IMG/VR virus record: IMGVR_UViG_3300020047_008132
Coordinates: 4,325-68,324 of that record
DNA length: 64,000 bases
Source of the DNA: a virus
Taxonomy: Duplodnaviria; Caudoviricetes
Reading direction: 5' to 3' (one strand)
The position numbers were made by a program, and so were the translations under genes. Positions 2,880 through 49,731 of this stretch are shown piece by piece (the stretch's first letter is position 1; the number at the start of each line of letters is the position of its first letter). The notes under the pieces are model-generated. The model did no database searches. It was given only the letters and a program-made list of their open reading frames with translations, and had not been told where the DNA came from.

Positions 2880-3722
2880 TTATAACACCAAGTTTGTGCC
2901 ATTTGTAAAAAATTGTTTTATATTTTGCTTCATTTTTAAAACTTTAAAGAAAAAACCCACCGCACTAGAGTAACTAAAAAAGTGTAGTCTGACTTATAAA
3001 GTCACGGTAGCGTTGCTCCTGCTTATCAAAATACTCTTTATCAATTTCAAAGGCGGTAAAGTCCATCTTGTATTTGTGTGCTGAAATACGGTTAGAGCCT
3101 GAGCCTAAATGCGTGTCAATTACTTTCATTCCTTCTTCGGCATAGTTTTTATATATCCAGTCATATAATGCAACCGGCTTTTGTGTAGGGTGTGTTTTCT
3201 TTTCTCCTTGTGGATTATTCAAATATCCAAACCCAATCCAGTCATAGGTGAATCTTCTCAAGATACAATTAAATGAAGTCCACGCAAGTTCACCGTCTGA
3301 AAAGTTTGTATTATTTGCATTCGTTATTTTTTTATCCCAAAAAATCCATCCCTTCTTAGGTGGCAGTAAGTCTGCAAAATAATTACCTCCCCATACAATT
3401 TGATTCTTTGAAACGCGTTGAAGTTCGGCAAAGTATTCATCACTTGGTCGTTCATTATCCCATCCTTTTTTATCATGGTGCTGTTTATTTGAAAAAGTGT
3501 TTGCCTTACCTCCTTTGCCTTTTACGGTGGTATTCCCATCAAAGTTGATTCCGTATGGCGGGTCAACGACAGCCAAGTCGAAATAATTATCAGGAAACTG
3601 TTTCATTCCTTCGACACAATCAGAATTAAATACAATAGAACCCACGCTTTTTTTCTTTAAAGTTTTAAAAATTCATAAGGTCAATTTTTTACAAACGGAC
3701 ACAAACTCTTGCAGCGTTAGCT
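2880..3722 (+). repeat. attC-like site with a gene inside its loop
   Basis: R'' TTATAAC 2880-2886, R' GTTAGCT 3716-3722; arms ~2890-2955 and ~3648-3708 are inverted repeats (AGTTTGTG-CCATTTGTAAAAAATTG; TTTTTAAAACTTTAAAGAAAAAA). Confidence 0.75.
2974..3645 (-). CDS. DNA N4-cytosine/N6-adenine methyltransferase (beta class)
   Basis: DPPY motif, HPTQKP, then DTHLGSGS SAM-binding motif; GTG start. Confidence 0.9.
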   Translation of the reverse strand: MGSIVFNSDCVEGMKQFPDNYFDLAVVDPPYGINFDGNTTVKGKGGKANTFSNKQHHDKKGWDNERPSDEYFAELQRVSKNQIVWGGNYFADLLPPKKGWIFWDKKITNANNTNFSDGELAWTSFNCILRRFTYDWIGFGYLNNPQGEKKTHPTQKPVALYDWIYKNYAEEGMKVIDTHLGSGSNRISAHKYKMDFTAFEIDKEYFDKQEQRYRDFISQTTLF

Positions 3723-5995: not shown

Positions 5996-6054
5996 ACTTT
6001 TAATGATTAAATTGATTAATTGCCCACGCACAAAAAATGAAAAAGAAAACAGAC

Positions 6055-6186
6055 ACATAACAGCACCTAACCAAAATTGGCGGCTTAGCGGTAAATTGAA
6101 CTGTATTGCTTCGTATCATCATTTGTGCTTGTTTGAAAATTTGTACTTCGTAATCGCCAACTTCGGTTAGCCGCAAAACGTTAATC
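6055..6186 (+). repeat. attC-like site, right end of array 1
   Basis: ACATAAC...GTTAATC; stem CTAACCAAAATTGGCG / CGCCAACTTCGGTTAG. Confidence 0.85.
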
Positions 6187-44917: not shown

Positions 44918-45423
44918 ATTTTTTCAGCAAAAGCGGTGAATGAATTGTAAGCGTCCAATTCGCTTACAAAAATGTTTTTATATTTTCCGGATGCGACAAA
45001 ATAGTCCTTTATCATATCCGGTACAAAAGCGTTTATGTGTTTCCGGTTTGAATAAGGACGCCAATAAAGCTGATTCCAATGCGGGAGGTAAAGAAACATT
45101 ACCCCGCCTGACCGTAAGCAATCCGTCCAGTGGTTAAGGTGCGCAACCCAATCATTGAGATGCTCAAGACAATGCGAACTGAATATCCCATCGGCATAAT
45201 TTAAAGGAAGATTCATTGCATCCCGCAAATCTTCATCCTTACAATTTTTATCAATTCCAATTGCCCCTGGAAATTTCCACTCCTCGCGACCATATCCAAT
45301 GTCGAATATTATACCTTCTTTCAGAACTTCTTTTGCAAATGGAAGGGCAAATCTGGCAGCGTTGCCATCGGCCTGGAATGCCGGATAATTCACGCCTCTA
45401 AAGGTTACTGTTTCTATTGGCAT
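44914..45423 (-). CDS. Class I SAM-dependent methyltransferase
   Basis: FDIGYG, FSSHCLEHL, LRSGGVM. Confidence 0.8.
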   Translation of the reverse strand: MPIETVTFRGVNYPAFQADGNAARFALPFAKEVLKEGIIFDIGYGREEWKFPGAIGIDKNCKDEDLRDAMNLPLNYADGIFSSHCLEHLNDWVAHLNHWTDCLRSGGVMFLYLPHWNQLYWRPYSNRKHINAFVPDMIKDYFVASGKYKNIFVSELDAYNSFTAFAEKI

Positions 45424-45427
45424 TTGA

Positions 45428-45435
45428 CAAAAATA
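45428..45435 (-). promoter_or_regulatory. Bacteroidota -7 promoter element
   Basis: TATTTTTG immediately upstream of the late block. Confidence 0.5.
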
Positions 45436-45453
45436 ACTATTTTTAGTATATTC

Positions 45454-45714
45454 TTATTTCGCTTTGTAGGCAATGTGTCCTTTTAAAAAGGTGTTAATCT
45501 CAACAGTCCCGCCGATCGCTTCGACAATCAATATCAGCGTCTTTACAGTACAATTTCTACCAGCCTCAATGTCAACAATGGTCGCCTGGCGTACTCCGGT
45601 TTTTTCGCAAAGTTCCTTTTGAGTAAGTCCTGACGCCTTACGAAGCGTTTTGATAGCCTCGGCAATTTTCAATCTTGACTTCTTTGGATTTGCTGTATTC
45701 TTATTCTTATTCAT
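45454..45714 (-). CDS. XRE-family HTH regulator
   Basis: LRKASGLTQKELCEKTGVRQATIVDIEAG. Confidence 0.85.
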   Translation of the reverse strand: MNKNKNTANPKKSRLKIAEAIKTLRKASGLTQKELCEKTGVRQATIVDIEAGRNCTVKTLILIVEAIGGTVEINTFLKGHIAYKAK

Positions 45715-45892
45715 TAATTATGGTTATTAGTTCTTTGATCTTGTTGCGCGAAACAAACTTTCTGTCAAGATACCATCCAAGTGTTCCGTTCTTTATTACT
45801 CTTTTCACAGGCTGAAGCCCCTTTTTGAAGACATCCATTCCCTGTAATGTGTATTTTTCATGTCCCCTAATTTGATATTGTTTTTCAGGCAT
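45707..45892 (-). CDS. Hypothetical protein
   Basis: ORF. Confidence 0.5.
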   Translation of the reverse strand: MPEKQYQIRGHEKYTLQGMDVFKKGLQPVKRVIKNGTLGWYLDRKFVSRNKIKELITIINE

Positions 45893-45922
45893 TTGTGATT
45901 TTTTTATTCGTCAAGCCTGGTG

Positions 45923-46450
45923 TTAGTGGCAATAGTTAAGAAACTCCGTCTTACCATTGTAACCTTTCGACATTTGGAGAATACAGGTTTGCACCCTTGC
46001 TCCGTTAAATATGCTTCTTGGTAAGTGAGTAATGCTTACCAATCCAAACTCAATGATATCACTCGTTCTTTTTTGCCCGTTTATCACAGTCAACCAAGGC
46101 ATTAAAGCAATAATGTTATCGCTCATTTCCATACACTCATACAAAATTTTATATCCTTTTGCCATTGGCGTAAATGGTGGGTTCATTACCACCCAATCAA
46201 ATCTCTGTTTTTCCATAGCAAAAAAATCTTGTGGCTCAATTACAGTTCCTTTATGCTTTAATGCCTTTACCAAGTTTCCTAATCCGCTTGTAGGTTCTAA
46301 AATTGTTCCTGCGTTATCAGGCAAAAAAGAACTCATATAGTTGCAAACCTTTTCTGGTGTTTGAAATCCTGCAATACTACTGCCACTAACATCCGCTATA
46401 AGTAATGGCGGGTTCTGTGGTAAATCAATGTTTTTGCTTTCTATTATCAT
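45923..46450 (-). CDS. Small N6-adenine DNA methyltransferase-like protein
   Basis: FQTP, ILEPTSGLG, VMNPPF; start inside attC loop, stop in core site. Confidence 0.8.
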   Translation of the reverse strand: MIIESKNIDLPQNPPLLIADVSGSSIAGFQTPEKVCNYMSSFLPDNAGTILEPTSGLGNLVKALKHKGTVIEPQDFFAMEKQRFDWVVMNPPFTPMAKGYKILYECMEMSDNIIALMPWLTVINGQKRTSDIIEFGLVSITHLPRSIFNGARVQTCILQMSKGYNGKTEFLNYCH

Positions 46451-46512
46451 TTGTGTATAATTCAAAGTGAGTAGTCCTAAATCCGCCACTACTCATAGCG
46501 GAAACGTTATAA
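46384..46512 (+). repeat. attC-like site
   Basis: CACTAAC...GTTATAA; stem CCGCTATAAGTAATGGCGG / CCGCCACTACTCATAGCGG. Confidence 0.85.
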
Positions 46513-47154
46513 GCAAGCTGCTACATTCCTGCTGCGAATGAAAGTTCCCCATTGTTCAGCCATAGCTTTTGCCACCCCTGTGAAAGTTTTTGAGCTTTCC
46601 TTTGCGTTTTTTGCAATCCCCATGTTATAACTTTGTCCACGTTTCTTTCCTCCAGTATTACTCGGCAAATACGGCTTATAGTTGCTCTTAATGTCTGTCG
46701 GCTTTAATAGTGGCAAATTTTTCAACCACAATAAAGTTCGTTTACTGTATTCGTGTCCATACTCGTAGGGCTGTATCGCTTGGCTATGTTTTGGTAATTC
46801 AACTACTTTTAATGGTGTTGGGTTTTCAACTGCAATATATTCAATAGGCGCGTTAAGCAGTTCCAAAAACATAGCTTTCGCTTCCATTGCTTTTTCGTAC
46901 CTATCTTGGCACAAATTACCTGCTGTTGGGTACATCCATCTTGCTCCAGCCCTACTCATATAAGTGCAAGGCGGGTGTGCTATCATCACATCATATTTGC
47001 CACTATAAGCCTCTTTAACTGCATCGCCTACAATATGCCATTCGGGTCTACCTCCACTACATTCTTGTAGGTCGCAACTATAAGCCTCAAATCCTAATTC
47101 TCGGAAAGCTCTGCAAACTTCTTGGCTCTCCTCACAAGCTATTAATATTTTCAT
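46507..47154 (-). CDS. C5-cytosine DNA methyltransferase-like protein
   Basis: ILIACEES, HPPCTY, IAVENP, RSKT-like SKTF; stop in core site. Confidence 0.8.
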   Translation of the reverse strand: MKILIACEESQEVCRAFRELGFEAYSCDLQECSGGRPEWHIVGDAVKEAYSGKYDVMIAHPPCTYMSRAGARWMYPTAGNLCQDRYEKAMEAKAMFLELLNAPIEYIAVENPTPLKVVELPKHSQAIQPYEYGHEYSKRTLLWLKNLPLLKPTDIKSNYKPYLPSNTGGKKRGQSYNMGIAKNAKESSKTFTGVAKAMAEQWGTFIRSRNVAACL

Positions 47155-47191
47155 TTCAATTTAAGTTTCTTTTTAATTAACCGCAGCCAGC

Positions 47192-47322
47192 TTATAACAC
47201 GTGTTTTGTGCAATAGGGGCTGTGGTGGTTTATTCAAGTTTCTGCTTCTAATCAAGGTCTGTGGTAGGTTGAAGGTTTCGTTTCCAAAATCCCCTACTGC
47301 ACAAAGCACCTTAACGTTACCT
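47192..47322 (+). repeat. attC-like site, right end of array 2
   Basis: TTATAAC...GTTACCT; stem GTGTTTTGTGCAATAGGGG / CCCCTACTGCACAAAGCAC. Confidence 0.85.
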
Positions 47323-47508
47323 ACCCACCCCGCACGTATCTACCGGCACATCGTAGTGCATATTCCAGCCATCTACTACTACTACCGGTGCGGTGGCTTT
47401 GGTGCAGCTAAACAAAGCGGTGCTGGTAATTATTGCCAGTATAATAAACAGCAGTGCCAGTAAAATTTTTTGGCTGCGTAAAAGTGGTTTGCGTTTTTTG
47501 TTTTTCAT
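47317..47508 (-). CDS. Small lipoprotein-like protein
   Basis: Basic N-terminus, hydrophobic helix, LFSC. Confidence 0.5.
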   Translation of the reverse strand: MKNKKRKPLLRSQKILLALLFIILAIITSTALFSCTKATAPVVVVDGWNMHYDVPVDTCGVGR

Positions 47509-47795
47509 TTTAGTGTTGTTTCTTCTTCCGGTAGTATTATTCGCTTTACTTCAGTTGGGCTTACCCTTACTATAGCACCGGTTGCAGCATTAAAACATTG
47601 TGTAACCTGCACCAGGTAAACAGTGGCAGGAATAGCAGTTAGTCTATTAGAACCATCGGTATAGTTCATTCCTTTTGATGATGCTTCATCCTGGCTATAC
47701 TTATATACTACTTCCGTCTCTGTAATTTTATCCAGCACAATGCCTTTTACATTTCCGTAAATAGCGGTAACAGCTTCTATTTTGTTTCCAATCAT
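47505..47795 (-). CDS. Hypothetical protein
   Basis: Coupled ORF. Confidence 0.5.
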   Translation of the reverse strand: MIGNKIEAVTAIYGNVKGIVLDKITETEVVYKYSQDEASSKGMNYTDGSNRLTAIPATVYLVQVTQCFNAATGAIVRVSPTEVKRIILPEEETTLK

Positions 47796-48055
47796 TACAT
47801 CAACTTATTTAAAATCAATTCGCCCTGGGTAACGGTTAAAAGTCTAAGCTGGTCGTATTCTTCTTCGGTAATACCAAATTGCTCAAGCAGTCCGCTGCGT
47901 ATTACATCGCGCTTTAACAGGCCGGTAGCTTGTGTATGTATTTTTATTGCAGCAAAGTTGCCCGCAATAAAGTTTTCGGGATCGGCCAGCAGTTGGCAGA
48001 TTTCCGTTTTTGTGTATTTGCGCTTTGGTATACGGTCTAATATGCTAACGGGCAT
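47795..48055 (-). CDS. Hypothetical (possible DNA-binding) protein
   Basis: ATG at 48055 preferred. Confidence 0.5.
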   Translation of the reverse strand: MPVSILDRIPKRKYTKTEICQLLADPENFIAGNFAAIKIHTQATGLLKRDVIRSGLLEQFGITEEEYDQLRLLTVTQGELILNKLM

Positions 48056-48369
48056 AGTTTGCTTTAATGGGTAAGCGAAAATAATTGCCTTTTTTGAATA
48101 TACAAAAAAAGCAAGCATTATTTTTTCGTGTTCAAACCGTGTTTGTTTTGTAAATTTTGTTGTGCAAACCGTGAATTTTAAAGTGTTTTTGGTGGCACAG
48201 GTGGGGTAATGGGTGGGGCGTAGTATAAAAGGGGGCGCGGGGCGCAATTTTGAATGCGGAATGCGGAATGCGGAAGTATAAATGCACGGCAAACCGGGTG
48301 CTGAAGATTATAATGTGTGTGTTTAGTTTATTGCACACACTTTTAGAAAGTGCCGTTTTTGGGTACTGA

Positions 48370-48667
48370 CTTGAAAAAACGCGTAAGTTTTGTAAGTTTT
48401 TTTTACTGTATTGATTTGCAGAAAGTTAAGTGCCATTTTTTACTTACAATTTATTTTTTGTAAGTGTAAGTTTTGTAAGTTGGGCTGCTGCCTGCTAACA
48501 ATACTTACAAAACTTACAAAATTTAAAATAAATGTAAGTAATGTAGTTTCATAGGCAAATGGTTGTAAAACTTACAAAACTTACAAAACTTACGCAAAAA
48601 TAGCTGCGCTGTAAAAACGGCTATTTACAGGAAATAAAAAACCCGCCAATGTTGGCGGGTTGTAAGT
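48370..48667. repeat. Iteron cluster, putative replication origin
   Basis: About 13 GTAAG/CTTAC copies in direct and inverted orientation, AT-rich, non-coding. Confidence 0.7.
48635..48661 (-). terminator. Intrinsic terminator
   Basis: AACCCGCCAAC-ATTGGCGGGTT followed by TTTTATTT on the - strand. Confidence 0.7.
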
Positions 48668-48866: not shown

Positions 48867-49066
48867 GGTTTGGTAATTGTGTTTAAAGTAACTTCGGTGT
48901 TATCAATAGCTGCGTTTATTTCGGCAATGGCTGTAGTAACCTTTACATACTCTTTATCGCAAAATTCTTTTTCAGAATCTGATCTATGGTAACTTCGTGA
49001 AGGATGCACTTCGCTCCAGCGTTTATCTAAAAGTTCAAGGCAAAATTTGAGTGTTGCTATTTTCAT
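48863..49066 (-). CDS. Hypothetical protein
   Basis: Coupled ORF. Confidence 0.5.
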   Translation of the reverse strand: MKIATLKFCLELLDKRWSEVHPSRSYHRSDSEKEFCDKEYVKVTTAIAEINAAIDNTEVTLNTITKP

Positions 49067-49731
49067 GGTTTACCGGTTTTGCTGATTACTTTAAATTCTA
49101 TTACCCAAACGTATGGGTTGGCATCCCAGCTTTCGCGGCCGTTAATTTTTAACCATAAAGATGTAAAAGAAGAAGCTGCGTATTTGCATATATCTGAAGG
49201 ATGATTAGATATATAATTTACATAACCCTGCCGTGCGCTCCATTCTACCCCTTCTGCCTTTGCATCGGCTTCGGTAATGGTTTGCAGGCGTTCTACGCGT
49301 ATGCCGGTTATTTGCAGCCAAAGGCGGGCGGCTGCTTTTGGCATAAATAAAGAGGGGCGTTTATACCAGCCTACTTTACGGTAACTGTTTTTGCGTATAG
49401 TGGTTGGTTTTTCATCTTGATAAGAATAAATACCACCATCTATAAAAGCCCATTTTTGTTTACCAGTTTTAGTCAATCCGTTTTTCTTCCAGTAGCCATA
49501 TGCGTAGAAAGTTTCTTTTACCCAAAGCAGGTTGCCCGGTTCACCGTATTTAGAAGTATTTGCCAGTTCGGGGTAATCTATAGCGCACCATTGTTTACCA
49601 AAACCGAATTTATACCCACCACAAAAAGTTTTATCTTTTACCGGTGTGGCAACCCTGCGGGTTTGTGTTTTGGTGCCGTTTAAAATAGCCTGCACCATTG
49701 GTGTGCTAAATAAAATTGGTGTTTCTTTCAT
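49063..49731 (-). CDS. ASCH/PUA-like phage protein
   Basis: PILFSTPMVQAILNGTKTQTRR..PSLFMP..WDANPYVWVIEF. Confidence 0.75.
   Translation of the reverse strand: MKETPILFSTPMVQAILNGTKTQTRRVATPVKDKTFCGGYKFGFGKQWCAIDYPELANTSKYGEPGNLLWVKETFYAYGYWKKNGLTKTGKQKWAFIDGGIYSYQDEKPTTIRKNSYRKVGWYKRPSLFMPKAAARLWLQITGIRVERLQTITEADAKAEGVEWSARQGYVNYISNHPSDICKYAASSFTSLWLKINGRESWDANPYVWVIEFKVISKTGKP

What the first reader, a model, noticed from the sequence alone, without database searches (positions are those of the whole stretch)
45923..47322. Second attC array of two DNA methyltransferase cassettes at the other end of the phage
Seen: the same architecture and orientation as array 1. Cassette starts G|TTAGTGGC (45922/3) and G|TTATAAGC (46506/7) match R'' boxes at 46384 and 47192. 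Both stop codons fall in the complement of the core site. The final R' (GTTACCT) overlaps the stop codon of the unrelated gene 47317-47508.
Basis: seen in the sequence. Interest (0 to 1): 0.75.

Follow-up and report, generated by a model that had tools for sequence, protein, structure and literature searches.

The report
Swappable methyltransferase cassettes in a phage
Two DNA-methyltransferase genes in this phage are true mobile gene cassettes bounded by folded recombination sites; the same sites punctuate large defence-gene arrays in Flavobacteriales chromosomes, so phage and host appear to trade attack and defence genes through one integron-like system.

Summary
Cassette 1 (45923-46506) and cassette 2 (46507-47316) each hold one minus-strand DNA methyltransferase gene. 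Each starts at G|TTA, and each ends in a TAAC-hairpin-(A)AAC-G site.

- **Junctions:** close copies of both cassettes sit in 12 and 4 other contexts, and homology breaks exactly at G|TTA.
- **End pairing:** each cassette's two ends pair over 14-16 nt, co-vary between relatives, and carry a fixed A·C mispair at position 11.
- **Hairpins:** all 18 main-stem pairs show compensatory changes.
- **Host link:** a covariance model of the sites hits 66 of 151 sampled Flavobacteriales genomes. Many hits form same-strand arrays of restriction-modification, Shedu, AIPR and retron-type cassettes.
- **Recombinase:** those arrays are edged by a Xer/IntI-like tyrosine recombinase that lacks the integron-integrase-specific segment.
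- **Phage:** the record has no recombinase, and its genes lie antisense to the site polarity, unlike in the host arrays.

So this is an integron-like cassette array, not a classical IntI/attC integron.

Published precedents are partial: CALINs in phages (Qi 2023) and rAID-1 (Ross 2019). This scan had already noted chromosomal arrays of this kind in Flavobacteriales on other DNA. The phage arm and its counter-defence cargo are new here.

The parts
45922..45936 (+). Left end of the array: G|TTAGTGGCAATAGT, the start of cassette 1 (extended R'). No hairpin precedes it, so this is the backbone junction.
   Evidence: The same junction follows other hairpins in L253, L255 and L256. Metagenome contigs from four runs end or branch at 45922-45925.
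45923..46450 (-). Gene 1, an N6-adenine DNA methyltransferase (NPPF). The conserved protein starts at residue 29 (FQTP). The first 28 codons are an extension read out of the hairpin loop through L'' and R''.
   Evidence: 524 homologues, typically about 150 aa and starting MDFQTP.
46376..46390 (+). Extended R'' of cassette 1 (ACTACTGCCACTAAC), complementary to 45922-45936 with an A·C mispair at position 11.
   Evidence: It co-varies in L255 (GCCA/TGGC) and L256 (CCCA/TGGG).
46377..46519 (+). Folded recombination site 1 (attC-like): TAAC-A-stem (46392-46414), 65-nt loop, stem (46480-46502), AAC-G|TTA. Crossover at 46506/46507.
   Evidence: R1 121.7 bits, E 8e-23 (this site was in the R1 training set). 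Minus-strand fold z -5.3. Covariation.
46507..47154 (-). Gene 2, a compact DNA methyltransferase with a C5-cytosine methyltransferase fold (invariant PPC and ENP).
47183..47198 (+). Extended R'' of cassette 2 (GCAGCCAGCTTATAAC), complementary to 46506-46521.
   Evidence: It is identical in 8 or more relatives, while the gene interior is only 65-90% identical. It co-varies to GCACCTAAC/GTTAGGTGC in L018.
47185..47329 (+). Folded recombination site 2: TAAC-stem (47201-47219), 71-nt loop, stem (47291-47309), CTTAAC-G|TTACCT. Crossover at 47316/47317, which is the end of the array.
   Evidence: R1 103.3 bits, E 5e-19 (this site was in the R1 training set). The window and L006 are 89% identical up to 47319 and unrelated after it. 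Contigs X2 and X4 diverge after 47319.
47317..47508 (-). Backbone gene (63 aa, membrane-anchor-like). Its stop codon lies in the last R' box. It is not a cassette.
   Evidence: No cognate R'' (GGTAGGTAAC) lies anywhere to its right.

Best explanation
Positions 45923-47316 are an integrase-less array of two mobile gene cassettes from an integron-like system shared by Flavobacteriales bacteria and their phages. Each cassette runs, on the + strand, TTA... [one gene, antisense] ...TAAC-A-hairpin-(A)AAC-G. When a cassette is a free circle, or when the strand folds, its first 14-16 bases pair with the bases just before its hairpin. This builds a two-box structure (an R stem and an L stem, each with a GCAAT/ACTGC motif and a fixed A·C mispair) around the exchange point G|TT. 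A tyrosine recombinase of the Xer/IntI-like family found at the edge of the host arrays most likely cuts and rejoins there. The phage encodes none, so cassette gain, loss and reshuffling would happen in infected cells that carry the enzyme. The cargo, an N6-adenine and a C5-cytosine-type DNA methyltransferase, would protect phage DNA from restriction enzymes, which themselves ride as cassettes in the host arrays. Shown by computation: the structure, its conservation, the exact breakpoints, cassette reshuffling between relatives, and the link between host arrays and the recombinase. Inferred: which enzyme acts, the single-stranded folded substrate, recombination during infection, and the protective role of the methyltransferases.
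For: 1. Chained inverted repeats fit a circular-cassette site. Sites are far above chance: 4 against 0.05 per shuffle, and R1 gives 6 hits, all in the two arrays (five of these six were R1 training sequences).
2. Gene 2 cassette in 12 contexts: homology starts at G|TTATAAGC after 12 different hairpin arms. To the right, every context differs after GTTA.
3. Gene 1 cassette in L253, L255 and L256: the junction is again exactly G|TTA.
4. Four metagenomes: contigs end or branch at 45925, 46506-9 and 47319, with different sequence beyond.
5. Cassettes change neighbours. The PAPS-reductase-like cassette's site (window 6000-6183) is joined to the gene 2 cassette in L006 but to the backbone in the window.
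6. Cassette ends match 7.4 of 10 positions beyond GTTA, against 3.4 for the two sides of one hairpin and 3.6 for non-cognate pairs. In host arrays the figures are 7.9, 3.6 and 3.6, and the single mismatch is almost always A against G at position 11.
7. Hairpin covariation: 85% of cells paired against 59% shuffled and about 34% slid, with 18 of 18 stem pairs showing compensatory changes.
8. R1 hits 66 of 151 Flavobacteriales genomes, many in same-strand arrays. The cargo of one array is defence systems.
9. A Xer/IntI-like recombinase lies within about 1-4 kb of an array edge in at least 16 genomes.
10. Distant gene 2 homologues in 62 other phage loci have almost no such sites (3 forward-orientation hits, all in 3 loci), which serves as a negative control.
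Against: No recombinase is present in the 68-kb record or in the Flavobacterium and Polaribacter phages checked, so activity in phages is unproven. The arrays could be relics.

Genes are antisense to the site polarity in all phage examples but sense in host arrays, and this is unexplained.

Hairpins next to near-identical gene 2 copies fall into at least 7 types. Either the hairpin turns over faster than the gene, or exchange also occurs at the TAAC side.

Y1 transposases co-occur similarly (31 of 40). Only adjacency separates the two.

No excised circle or empty site was observed. The host of this phage is not known.
Confidence: 0.75

Rival explanations
1. It is a classical CALIN: genuine integron attC sites served by an IntI integron integrase of the host, as proposed for other phages.
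For: The sites have TAAC...GTTA boxes, lengths of 123-125 nt, crossover at G|TT and first-bases/R'' complementarity. HattCI called a site of the same architecture in Polaribacter phage P12002L an attC.
Against: No TIGR02249 match at E <= 1e-50 was found in 401 sampled genomes of the order (no positive control rang). IntegronFinder surveys report almost no integrons in Bacteroidetes. The array-linked recombinase scores 210.6 against a cut-off of 265, with the IntI-specific region unmatched. P12002L_attC1 was the one phage site that IntI1 did not recombine. Spacer and R-box architecture differ from classical attC.
Confidence: 0.1
2. The hairpins are RNA elements between cistrons (processing sites, stabilisers or terminators). 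Modules are shuffled by relaxed homologous recombination at the short conserved AACGTTATAAG motif, as proposed for PeSL elements of T4-type phages.
For: The hairpins lie between co-transcribed early genes. In the phage set, non-Watson-Crick pairs favour G·U on the mRNA-sense strand, 92 against 32. Hairpin 1 folds better on that strand.
Against: In host arrays the same sites keep their polarity relative to cassette borders while genes lie on the other strand. The mispairs are position-specific rather than strand-wide. Several junctions share only GTTA. The pairing of the two cassette ends, with co-variation, is not explained by this model.
Confidence: 0.05
3. The repeats are REP/BIME-type palindromes mobilised by a Y1 (RAYT-type) transposase. 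They are merely dense in variable regions.
For: Y1_Tnp genes co-occur with R1 sites at genome level, 31 of 40.
Against: The sites are 120-145 nt, lie in same-strand arrays and bound single cassettes whose ends pair. No listed Y1 gene lies near a listed array, whereas the tyrosine recombinase is adjacent in at least 16 genomes. The phage record was not searched for a Y1 transposase.
Confidence: 0.05

Closest known systems
Integron gene cassettes with attC sites; CALINs in phages (Qi et al. 2023, PMC9892861)
   Same: Single-gene cassettes, structure-defined imperfect palindromes bounded by ...AAC / GTT..., crossover at G|TT, cassette start complementary to its own R'', and arrays without an integrase. 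Methyltransferase cargo was reported in phage CALINs, including a Polaribacter phage.
   Different: No IntI. The linked recombinase lacks the IntI-specific segment. The R box is 14 nt or longer with a fixed mispair at position 11. The spacer is 0-1 nt on one side and 3-6 nt on the other. Phage genes are antisense to site polarity. The Baltic Flavobacterium phages are not named in the main text or the one held supplementary file of that study, and its one site of this type failed with IntI1.
rAID-1 clusters of Bacteroidales (Ross et al. 2019; bioRxiv 10.1101/471110)
   Same: A XerD-family tyrosine recombinase at the 5' end of co-directional gene arrays, with repetitive intergenic sequences described as 'reminiscent of integrons'. 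The phylum is the same.
   Different: The cargo there is interbacterial immunity genes. Sites, crossover point and cassette borders were not defined, and no phage arm was described. Whether the Flavobacteriales recombinase belongs to the same family was not tested here.
Sedentary chromosomal integrons as stores of anti-phage defence (bioRxiv 10.1101/2024.07.02.601686)
   Same: Host arrays here carry restriction-modification, Shedu, AIPR and retron-type cassettes.
   Different: Those are IntI/attC integrons, mostly of Vibrio. Here the platform is different, and the phage carries the matching counter-defence cassettes on the same kind of site.
PeSL mobile regulatory cassettes of T4-type phages
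   Same: Stem-loops upstream of small genes in plastic regions of phage genomes, linked to modular shuffling.
   Different: PeSLs are conserved in sequence and hold a promoter. Here the arms differ and co-vary, breakpoints are exact to the base, and the sites also fill host chromosomal arrays.

Membership tests
Classical integron attC site / CALIN | R'' (..AAC) and R' (GTT..) boxes, with the exchange point between G and TT | tested here: met
   TAAC/GTTA are invariant in 38 sites. Breakpoints fall at G|TTA in 12 and 4 contexts and in 4 metagenomes.
Classical integron attC site / CALIN | First bases of a cassette are complementary to its own R'' | tested here: met
   7.4 of 10 positions against 3.4-3.6 in controls. 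The pairing is much longer than the classical 6-7 nt.
Classical integron attC site / CALIN | Imperfect palindrome conserved in structure rather than sequence, 57-141 nt long | tested here: met
   123 and 125 nt. 18 of 18 stem pairs show compensatory changes.
Classical integron attC site / CALIN | Unpaired central spacer of about 5 nt on both sides, with the canonical extrahelical bases | tested here: not met
   The spacer is 0-1 nt after TAAC and 3-6 nt before GTTA. Instead there are fixed T·G and A·C positions in the stem.
Classical integron attC site / CALIN | Integron integrase (IntI, TIGR02249, with its extra domain) in the element or the host clade | tested here: not met
   None in the record. 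None at E <= 1e-50 in 401 genomes (no positive control). The array-edge recombinase scores 210.6 against 265, with model positions 181-238 unmatched.
Classical integron attC site / CALIN | Recombined by IntI in an attC x attI assay | not testable with these tools
   Literature only: P12002L_attC1, of the same architecture, gave no verified recombinants with IntI1.
Classical integron attC site / CALIN | Called by IntegronFinder or HattCI | not testable with these tools
   Neither program nor model is available here. The Flavobacterium phages are not named in the main text or the one held supplementary file of Qi et al..
Flavobacteriales integron-like arrays (Xer/IntI-like recombinase) | Site of the same structural family | tested here: met
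   A model built from phage sites alone hits 66 of 151 host genomes at up to 117 bits, in arrays.
Flavobacteriales integron-like arrays (Xer/IntI-like recombinase) | Cassette ends pair over 14 nt or more, with an A·C mispair at position 11 | tested here: met
   In host arrays most of 38 cassettes match 9 of 10, with the mismatch at position 11. Window cassette 1 shows the same pattern. Cassette 2 has mismatches at positions 10-11.
Flavobacteriales integron-like arrays (Xer/IntI-like recombinase) | Recombinase gene at the edge of the array | tested here: not met
   Absent from the phage record. Present beside host arrays in at least 16 genomes. The phage array is therefore an integrase-less satellite of the system.
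Flavobacteriales integron-like arrays (Xer/IntI-like recombinase) | Genes co-oriented with site polarity | tested here: not met
   Genes are sense in G110, G066 and G082. They are antisense in the window and in all phage loci.
rAID-1 (Bacteroidales) | Recombinase at least 44% identical to BF9343_RS08045, with downstream co-directional low-GC genes | not tested
Only the description was read.
REP/BIME with RAYT | Short (20-40 nt) dispersed palindromes associated with a Y1 transposase gene | tested here: not met
   The sites are 120-145 nt and lie in arrays. Y1 genes are present in 40 of 151 genomes, but none of those listed lies next to a listed array.

The most novel reading that the evidence does not exclude
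Flavobacteriales and their phages share one cassette-exchange system that is distinct from classical integrons. It uses a Xer/IntI-like recombinase without the IntI domain, and folded sites of about 125-145 nt with a 14-nt or longer R box and fixed mispairs. Hosts bank restriction-modification and other defence cassettes in it. Phages carry integrase-less arrays of DNA-modification cassettes on the same sites and use the host enzyme to swap them, so both sides of the arms race draw on one recombinase-accessible gene pool.
Probability: 0.5. Interest if true: 0.9.

Novelty: new variant of a known kind. Interest (0 to 1): 0.8.

Why it matters
Integrons are considered nearly absent from Bacteroidota, and phage-borne cassette arrays are known only from one survey. 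Here a phage array can be tied, site by site, to a family of chromosomal arrays present in almost half of the sampled Flavobacteriales genomes.

That gives a concrete mechanism for how aquatic phages renew their anti-restriction methyltransferases and how hosts renew their defences.

It also defines the recombination site well enough to test at the bench: the exchange point, the two boxes and the fixed mispairs. And it supplies a search model that standard integron tools appear to lack.

Tried and rejected
- **Rfam:** a scan of 45000-48500 gave nothing meaningful.
- **Backbone relatives:** I looked for close relatives of the phage backbone to find an empty site. ORF 47795-48292 has no relatives, and ORF 49063-49731 has only relatives at 44% or less. 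Presence or absence of the array could therefore not be tested.
- **Gene 1 in viral contigs:** the pattern search found nothing. Homologues came from the protein search instead.
- **Gene 1 homologues on 127-317 kb contigs:** these lie in tightly packed phage operons, so they are ordinary genes there. The R1 model was not run on these two loci.
- **Cassette-order swap in L253:** I first suspected one, but the neighbouring ORF is a different, Dam-like gene that carries the same R'' end.
- **Strand of folding:** I first claimed that the minus strand is the folding strand. Host sites show position-specific T·G and A·C pairs rather than a clean strand bias, so the strand is left open.
- **Alternative polarity (hairpin belongs to the gene upstream of it):** rejected, because close relatives share the hairpin on the + strand right of the gene and differ on the left.
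- **Transposon with terminal inverted repeats:** no target duplications flank the repeats.
- **PDB sequence search for gene 2:** no match. The fold search settled its identity.
- **Promoter motifs in the loops:** looked at by eye only, with no conclusion.

Full report
**What is there**

All genes in this stretch lie on the minus strand.
- Gene 1 (45923-46450) is an N6-adenine DNA methyltransferase. It has the motifs TPEKV, EPTSGLGN and NPPF, and matches Pfam N6_Mtase and PHROG 799.
- Gene 2 (46507-47154) matches PHROG 757 'DNA methyltransferase' at E 8e-52 but no Pfam family. A model built on 18 relatives (pLDDT 82.6) matches C5-cytosine methyltransferases (DNMT3A/B, M.HaeIII, M.HhaI) at Foldseek E about 5e-7. 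PPC and ENP are invariant in the family.

**The repeats form a chain, not scattered pairs**
- 45921-45936 pairs with 46376-46391 (16 nt, 94%).
- Next to that, 46392-46414 pairs with 46480-46502 (23 nt, 87%, 65-nt loop).
- Three bases on, 46506-46521 pairs with 47183-47198 (16 nt, 88%).
- Next to that, 47201-47219 pairs with 47291-47309 (19 nt, 89%, 71-nt loop).
- The chain ends with CTTAAC-GTTACCT.

This is what an integron-type cassette model predicts. A cassette cut at G|TT carries the right half of its own site at its left end.

**More than chance**

A scan for TAAC, stem, loop, stem, GTTA with Watson-Crick stems finds 4 sites against 0.05 per shuffle. With wobble allowed it finds 8 against 1.4.

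A covariance model (R1) built from 30 long sites of the window and related phage loci hits the window six times. All hits are on the + strand and all are in the two arrays. Five of the six window hits were among the training sequences, so the clean result mainly shows that nothing else in the window resembles them.

In the 62 loci that hold only distant gene 2 homologues (L019-L059 and L061-L082), the scanner finds sites in just two (one forward hit each, in L054 and L080). L060 carries three.

**Are the borders real?**

The Baltic Sea Flavobacterium phages (lillamy, hattifnatt and relatives) carry gene 2. There the cassette ends are 100% identical to the window, while the gene interior is only about 65-78% identical.

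Across 12 contexts (the window, two isolated phages, five viral contigs and four metagenome-assembled contigs) the alignment starts at G|TTATAAGC after 12 different hairpin arms. After the right-hand hairpin, every context differs from GTTA onward. The window and L006 are 89% identical from 46422 to 47319 and unrelated after that point.

Gene 1 has 524 homologues. Its close relatives in L253, L255 and L256 again begin at G|TTA, directly after other hairpins.

Contigs from four independent metagenomes (aquatic, activated sludge, freshwater, biogas) end or branch at 45922-45925, 46506-46509 and 47319, with different sequence beyond. In two of them the backbone from 45590 to 45925 is identical to the window.

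**Cassettes move**

In L006 the site of the PAPS-reductase-like cassette of array 1 (window 6000-6183) is joined directly to the gene 2 cassette. In the window the same site is joined to the backbone.

The same end sequences also occur on different cargo:
- a Dam-like gene in L253;
- a short cassette in L085 whose ends match those of the gene 2 homologue in L018.

**Which hairpin belongs to which gene**

Close relatives share the hairpin to the right of the gene on the + strand, that is upstream of the gene, and differ on the left.

Over longer distances the hairpin itself is replaced. There are at least 7 types next to gene 2 copies that are 88-92% identical. I cannot explain this fully.

**The site in detail**

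Beyond GTTA, the two ends of a cassette match at 7.4 of 10 positions. The two sides of one hairpin match at 3.4, and unrelated pairs at 3.6.

The variable four bases after GTTA co-vary between the two cassette ends. Examples are TAAG/CTTA, GGTG/CACC, TGTG/CACA, and GTGG/CCAC changing to GCCA/TGGC and CCCA/TGGG. Position 11 is almost always A opposite C.

The hairpin stem carries the same GCAAT/ACTGC motif with the same mispair, plus a frequent T·G at stem pair 4. The folded site thus has two related boxes arranged around the exchange point.

On the 30-site alignment:

| Measure | Observed | Shuffled | Slid by 1-3 columns |
|---|---|---|---|
| Cells paired | 85% | 59% | about 34% |
| Covariation score | 0.573 | 0.152 | 0.06-0.12 |

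All 18 main-stem pairs show compensatory changes. This pattern argues for a folded form of the DNA.

**An odd detail in gene 1**

The conserved gene 1 protein starts at MDFQTP in most homologues. In the window that start codon is gone. The reading frame instead runs from an ATG in the hairpin loop through L'' and R'', adding 28 unconserved residues.

**The host side**

R1 was built from phage sites only, yet it hits 66 of 151 sampled genomes of the order that contains a Flavobacteriaceae MAG. Many hits form same-strand arrays of 10-20 sites.

One array (G110) carries the following cargo:
- two Shedu genes;
- a MutH-like nuclease with a C5 methyltransferase;
- an AIPR gene;
- an Eco57I-like methylase with an AccI endonuclease;
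- a DndB-like gene;
- an Eco47II endonuclease with its methylase;
- a UvrD-type helicase and a retron-type reverse transcriptase;
- four copies of an IS110-family element.

At its edge sits a 355-aa tyrosine recombinase. It passes the NCBIfam model 'XerA / integron integrase' (225.5 bits, cut-off 220). It scores 210.6 on the integron-integrase model (cut-off 265), and model positions 181-238, where the IntI-specific domain lies, are unmatched.

Homologues at E <= 1e-40 occur in 43 of the 151 genomes, and 38 of those also have sites. In at least 16 genomes the gene lies about 1-4 kb from an array edge, either co-directional or divergent.

Y1 transposases co-occur about as well (31 of 40), but none of those listed lies next to a listed array.

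Host cassettes obey the same end-pairing rule. Most match 9 of 10 positions, with the single mismatch at position 11.

**Differences between host and phage**

In host arrays the genes are sense to the site polarity, with the ORF followed by its site as in integrons. In the window and in every phage locus examined they are antisense.

Site polarity keeps its relation to the cassette borders while gene orientation flips. This makes a primary role as an RNA element unlikely.

The phage record (68,324 bases, rated complete) has no tyrosine recombinase. Phages lillamy, hattifnatt and P12002L have none either.

**Comparison with what is known**

- IntegronFinder surveys found only In0 elements and one complete integron (Salinibacter) in Bacteroidetes.
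- No IntI-level match appeared in 401 sampled genomes (without a positive control).
- Qi et al. 2023 reported CALINs in phages, including two methyltransferase cassettes in Polaribacter phage P12002L. Their P12002L_attC1 has the architecture described here, but it was the one site not recombined by IntI1.
- Ross et al. 2019 described rAID-1 arrays in Bacteroidales, with a XerD-family recombinase and intergenic repeats 'reminiscent of integrons', without defining sites or borders.
- Earlier notes of this scan had found chromosomal arrays of this kind in Flavobacteriales on other DNA. None concerned phages.

**Verdict**

The finding is real, and the cassette reading is right. The system works like an integron but fails the membership test for classical attC/IntI on the recombinase, on the spacer and box architecture, and, in the phage, on gene orientation.

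I file it as an integrase-less phage array of a Flavobacteriales integron-like system. It carries counter-defence cargo, and the acting enzyme is inferred rather than shown.

Noticed in passing
All four sites are on the + strand, with genes on the minus strand.
   Followed up: partly
window 2880-3722: A beta-class methyltransferase gene (2974-3645) seems to sit inside a long inverted repeat bounded by TAAC/GTTA, so the gene would lie in the hairpin loop. R1 does not score it. A CCCAC(C)GCAC motif recurs at cassette starts (2956, 4263, 5148), at some gene 5' ends (3641, 6023) and in the loop of an empty hairpin in L006. This hints at a second insertion point.
   Followed up: no
window 46367-46450: Gene 1 has lost the family's usual start (MDFQTP). 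It is read from an ATG in the hairpin loop through the site's L'' and R'' boxes, adding 28 unconserved residues. Close relatives have different extensions.
   Followed up: yes
window 46506-46530 and 47160-47199; L001, L002, L003-L014: Cassette ends are more conserved than cassette interiors: 100% against about 65-90%. Summed metagenome depth is 5-10 times higher over the ends than over the gene. Identical ends also carry different cargo (L253, L085 against L018).
   Followed up: partly
L269 3902-4876 and 6523-7497; L270 16-990 and 6798-7772 (host G110): Four copies of one IS110-family element are inserted within the host cassette array. Relatives of this IS family are known (from memory) to target attC or REP hairpins.
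   Followed up: no
host genomes G090, G128, G087, G111, G107 against G110, G010, G135, G066: There are two layouts of the array-edge recombinase. A protein of about 280 aa is divergent from the array, as in classical integrons. A protein of 355-390 aa with an N-terminal extension is co-directional with it, as in rAID-1.
   Followed up: partly
window and all phage loci against host arrays: Phage cassettes carry their genes antisense to the site polarity, while host cassettes carry them sense. I have no explanation.
   Followed up: partly
L087 3370-4677 (minus strand; contig JBBIOQ010000065.1): One 23-kb contig carries the gene 2 cassette array and also encodes a 435-aa tyrosine recombinase of the Xer/IntI-like type about 1.7 kb from the array. 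So some elements of this kind may bring their own enzyme.
   Followed up: partly
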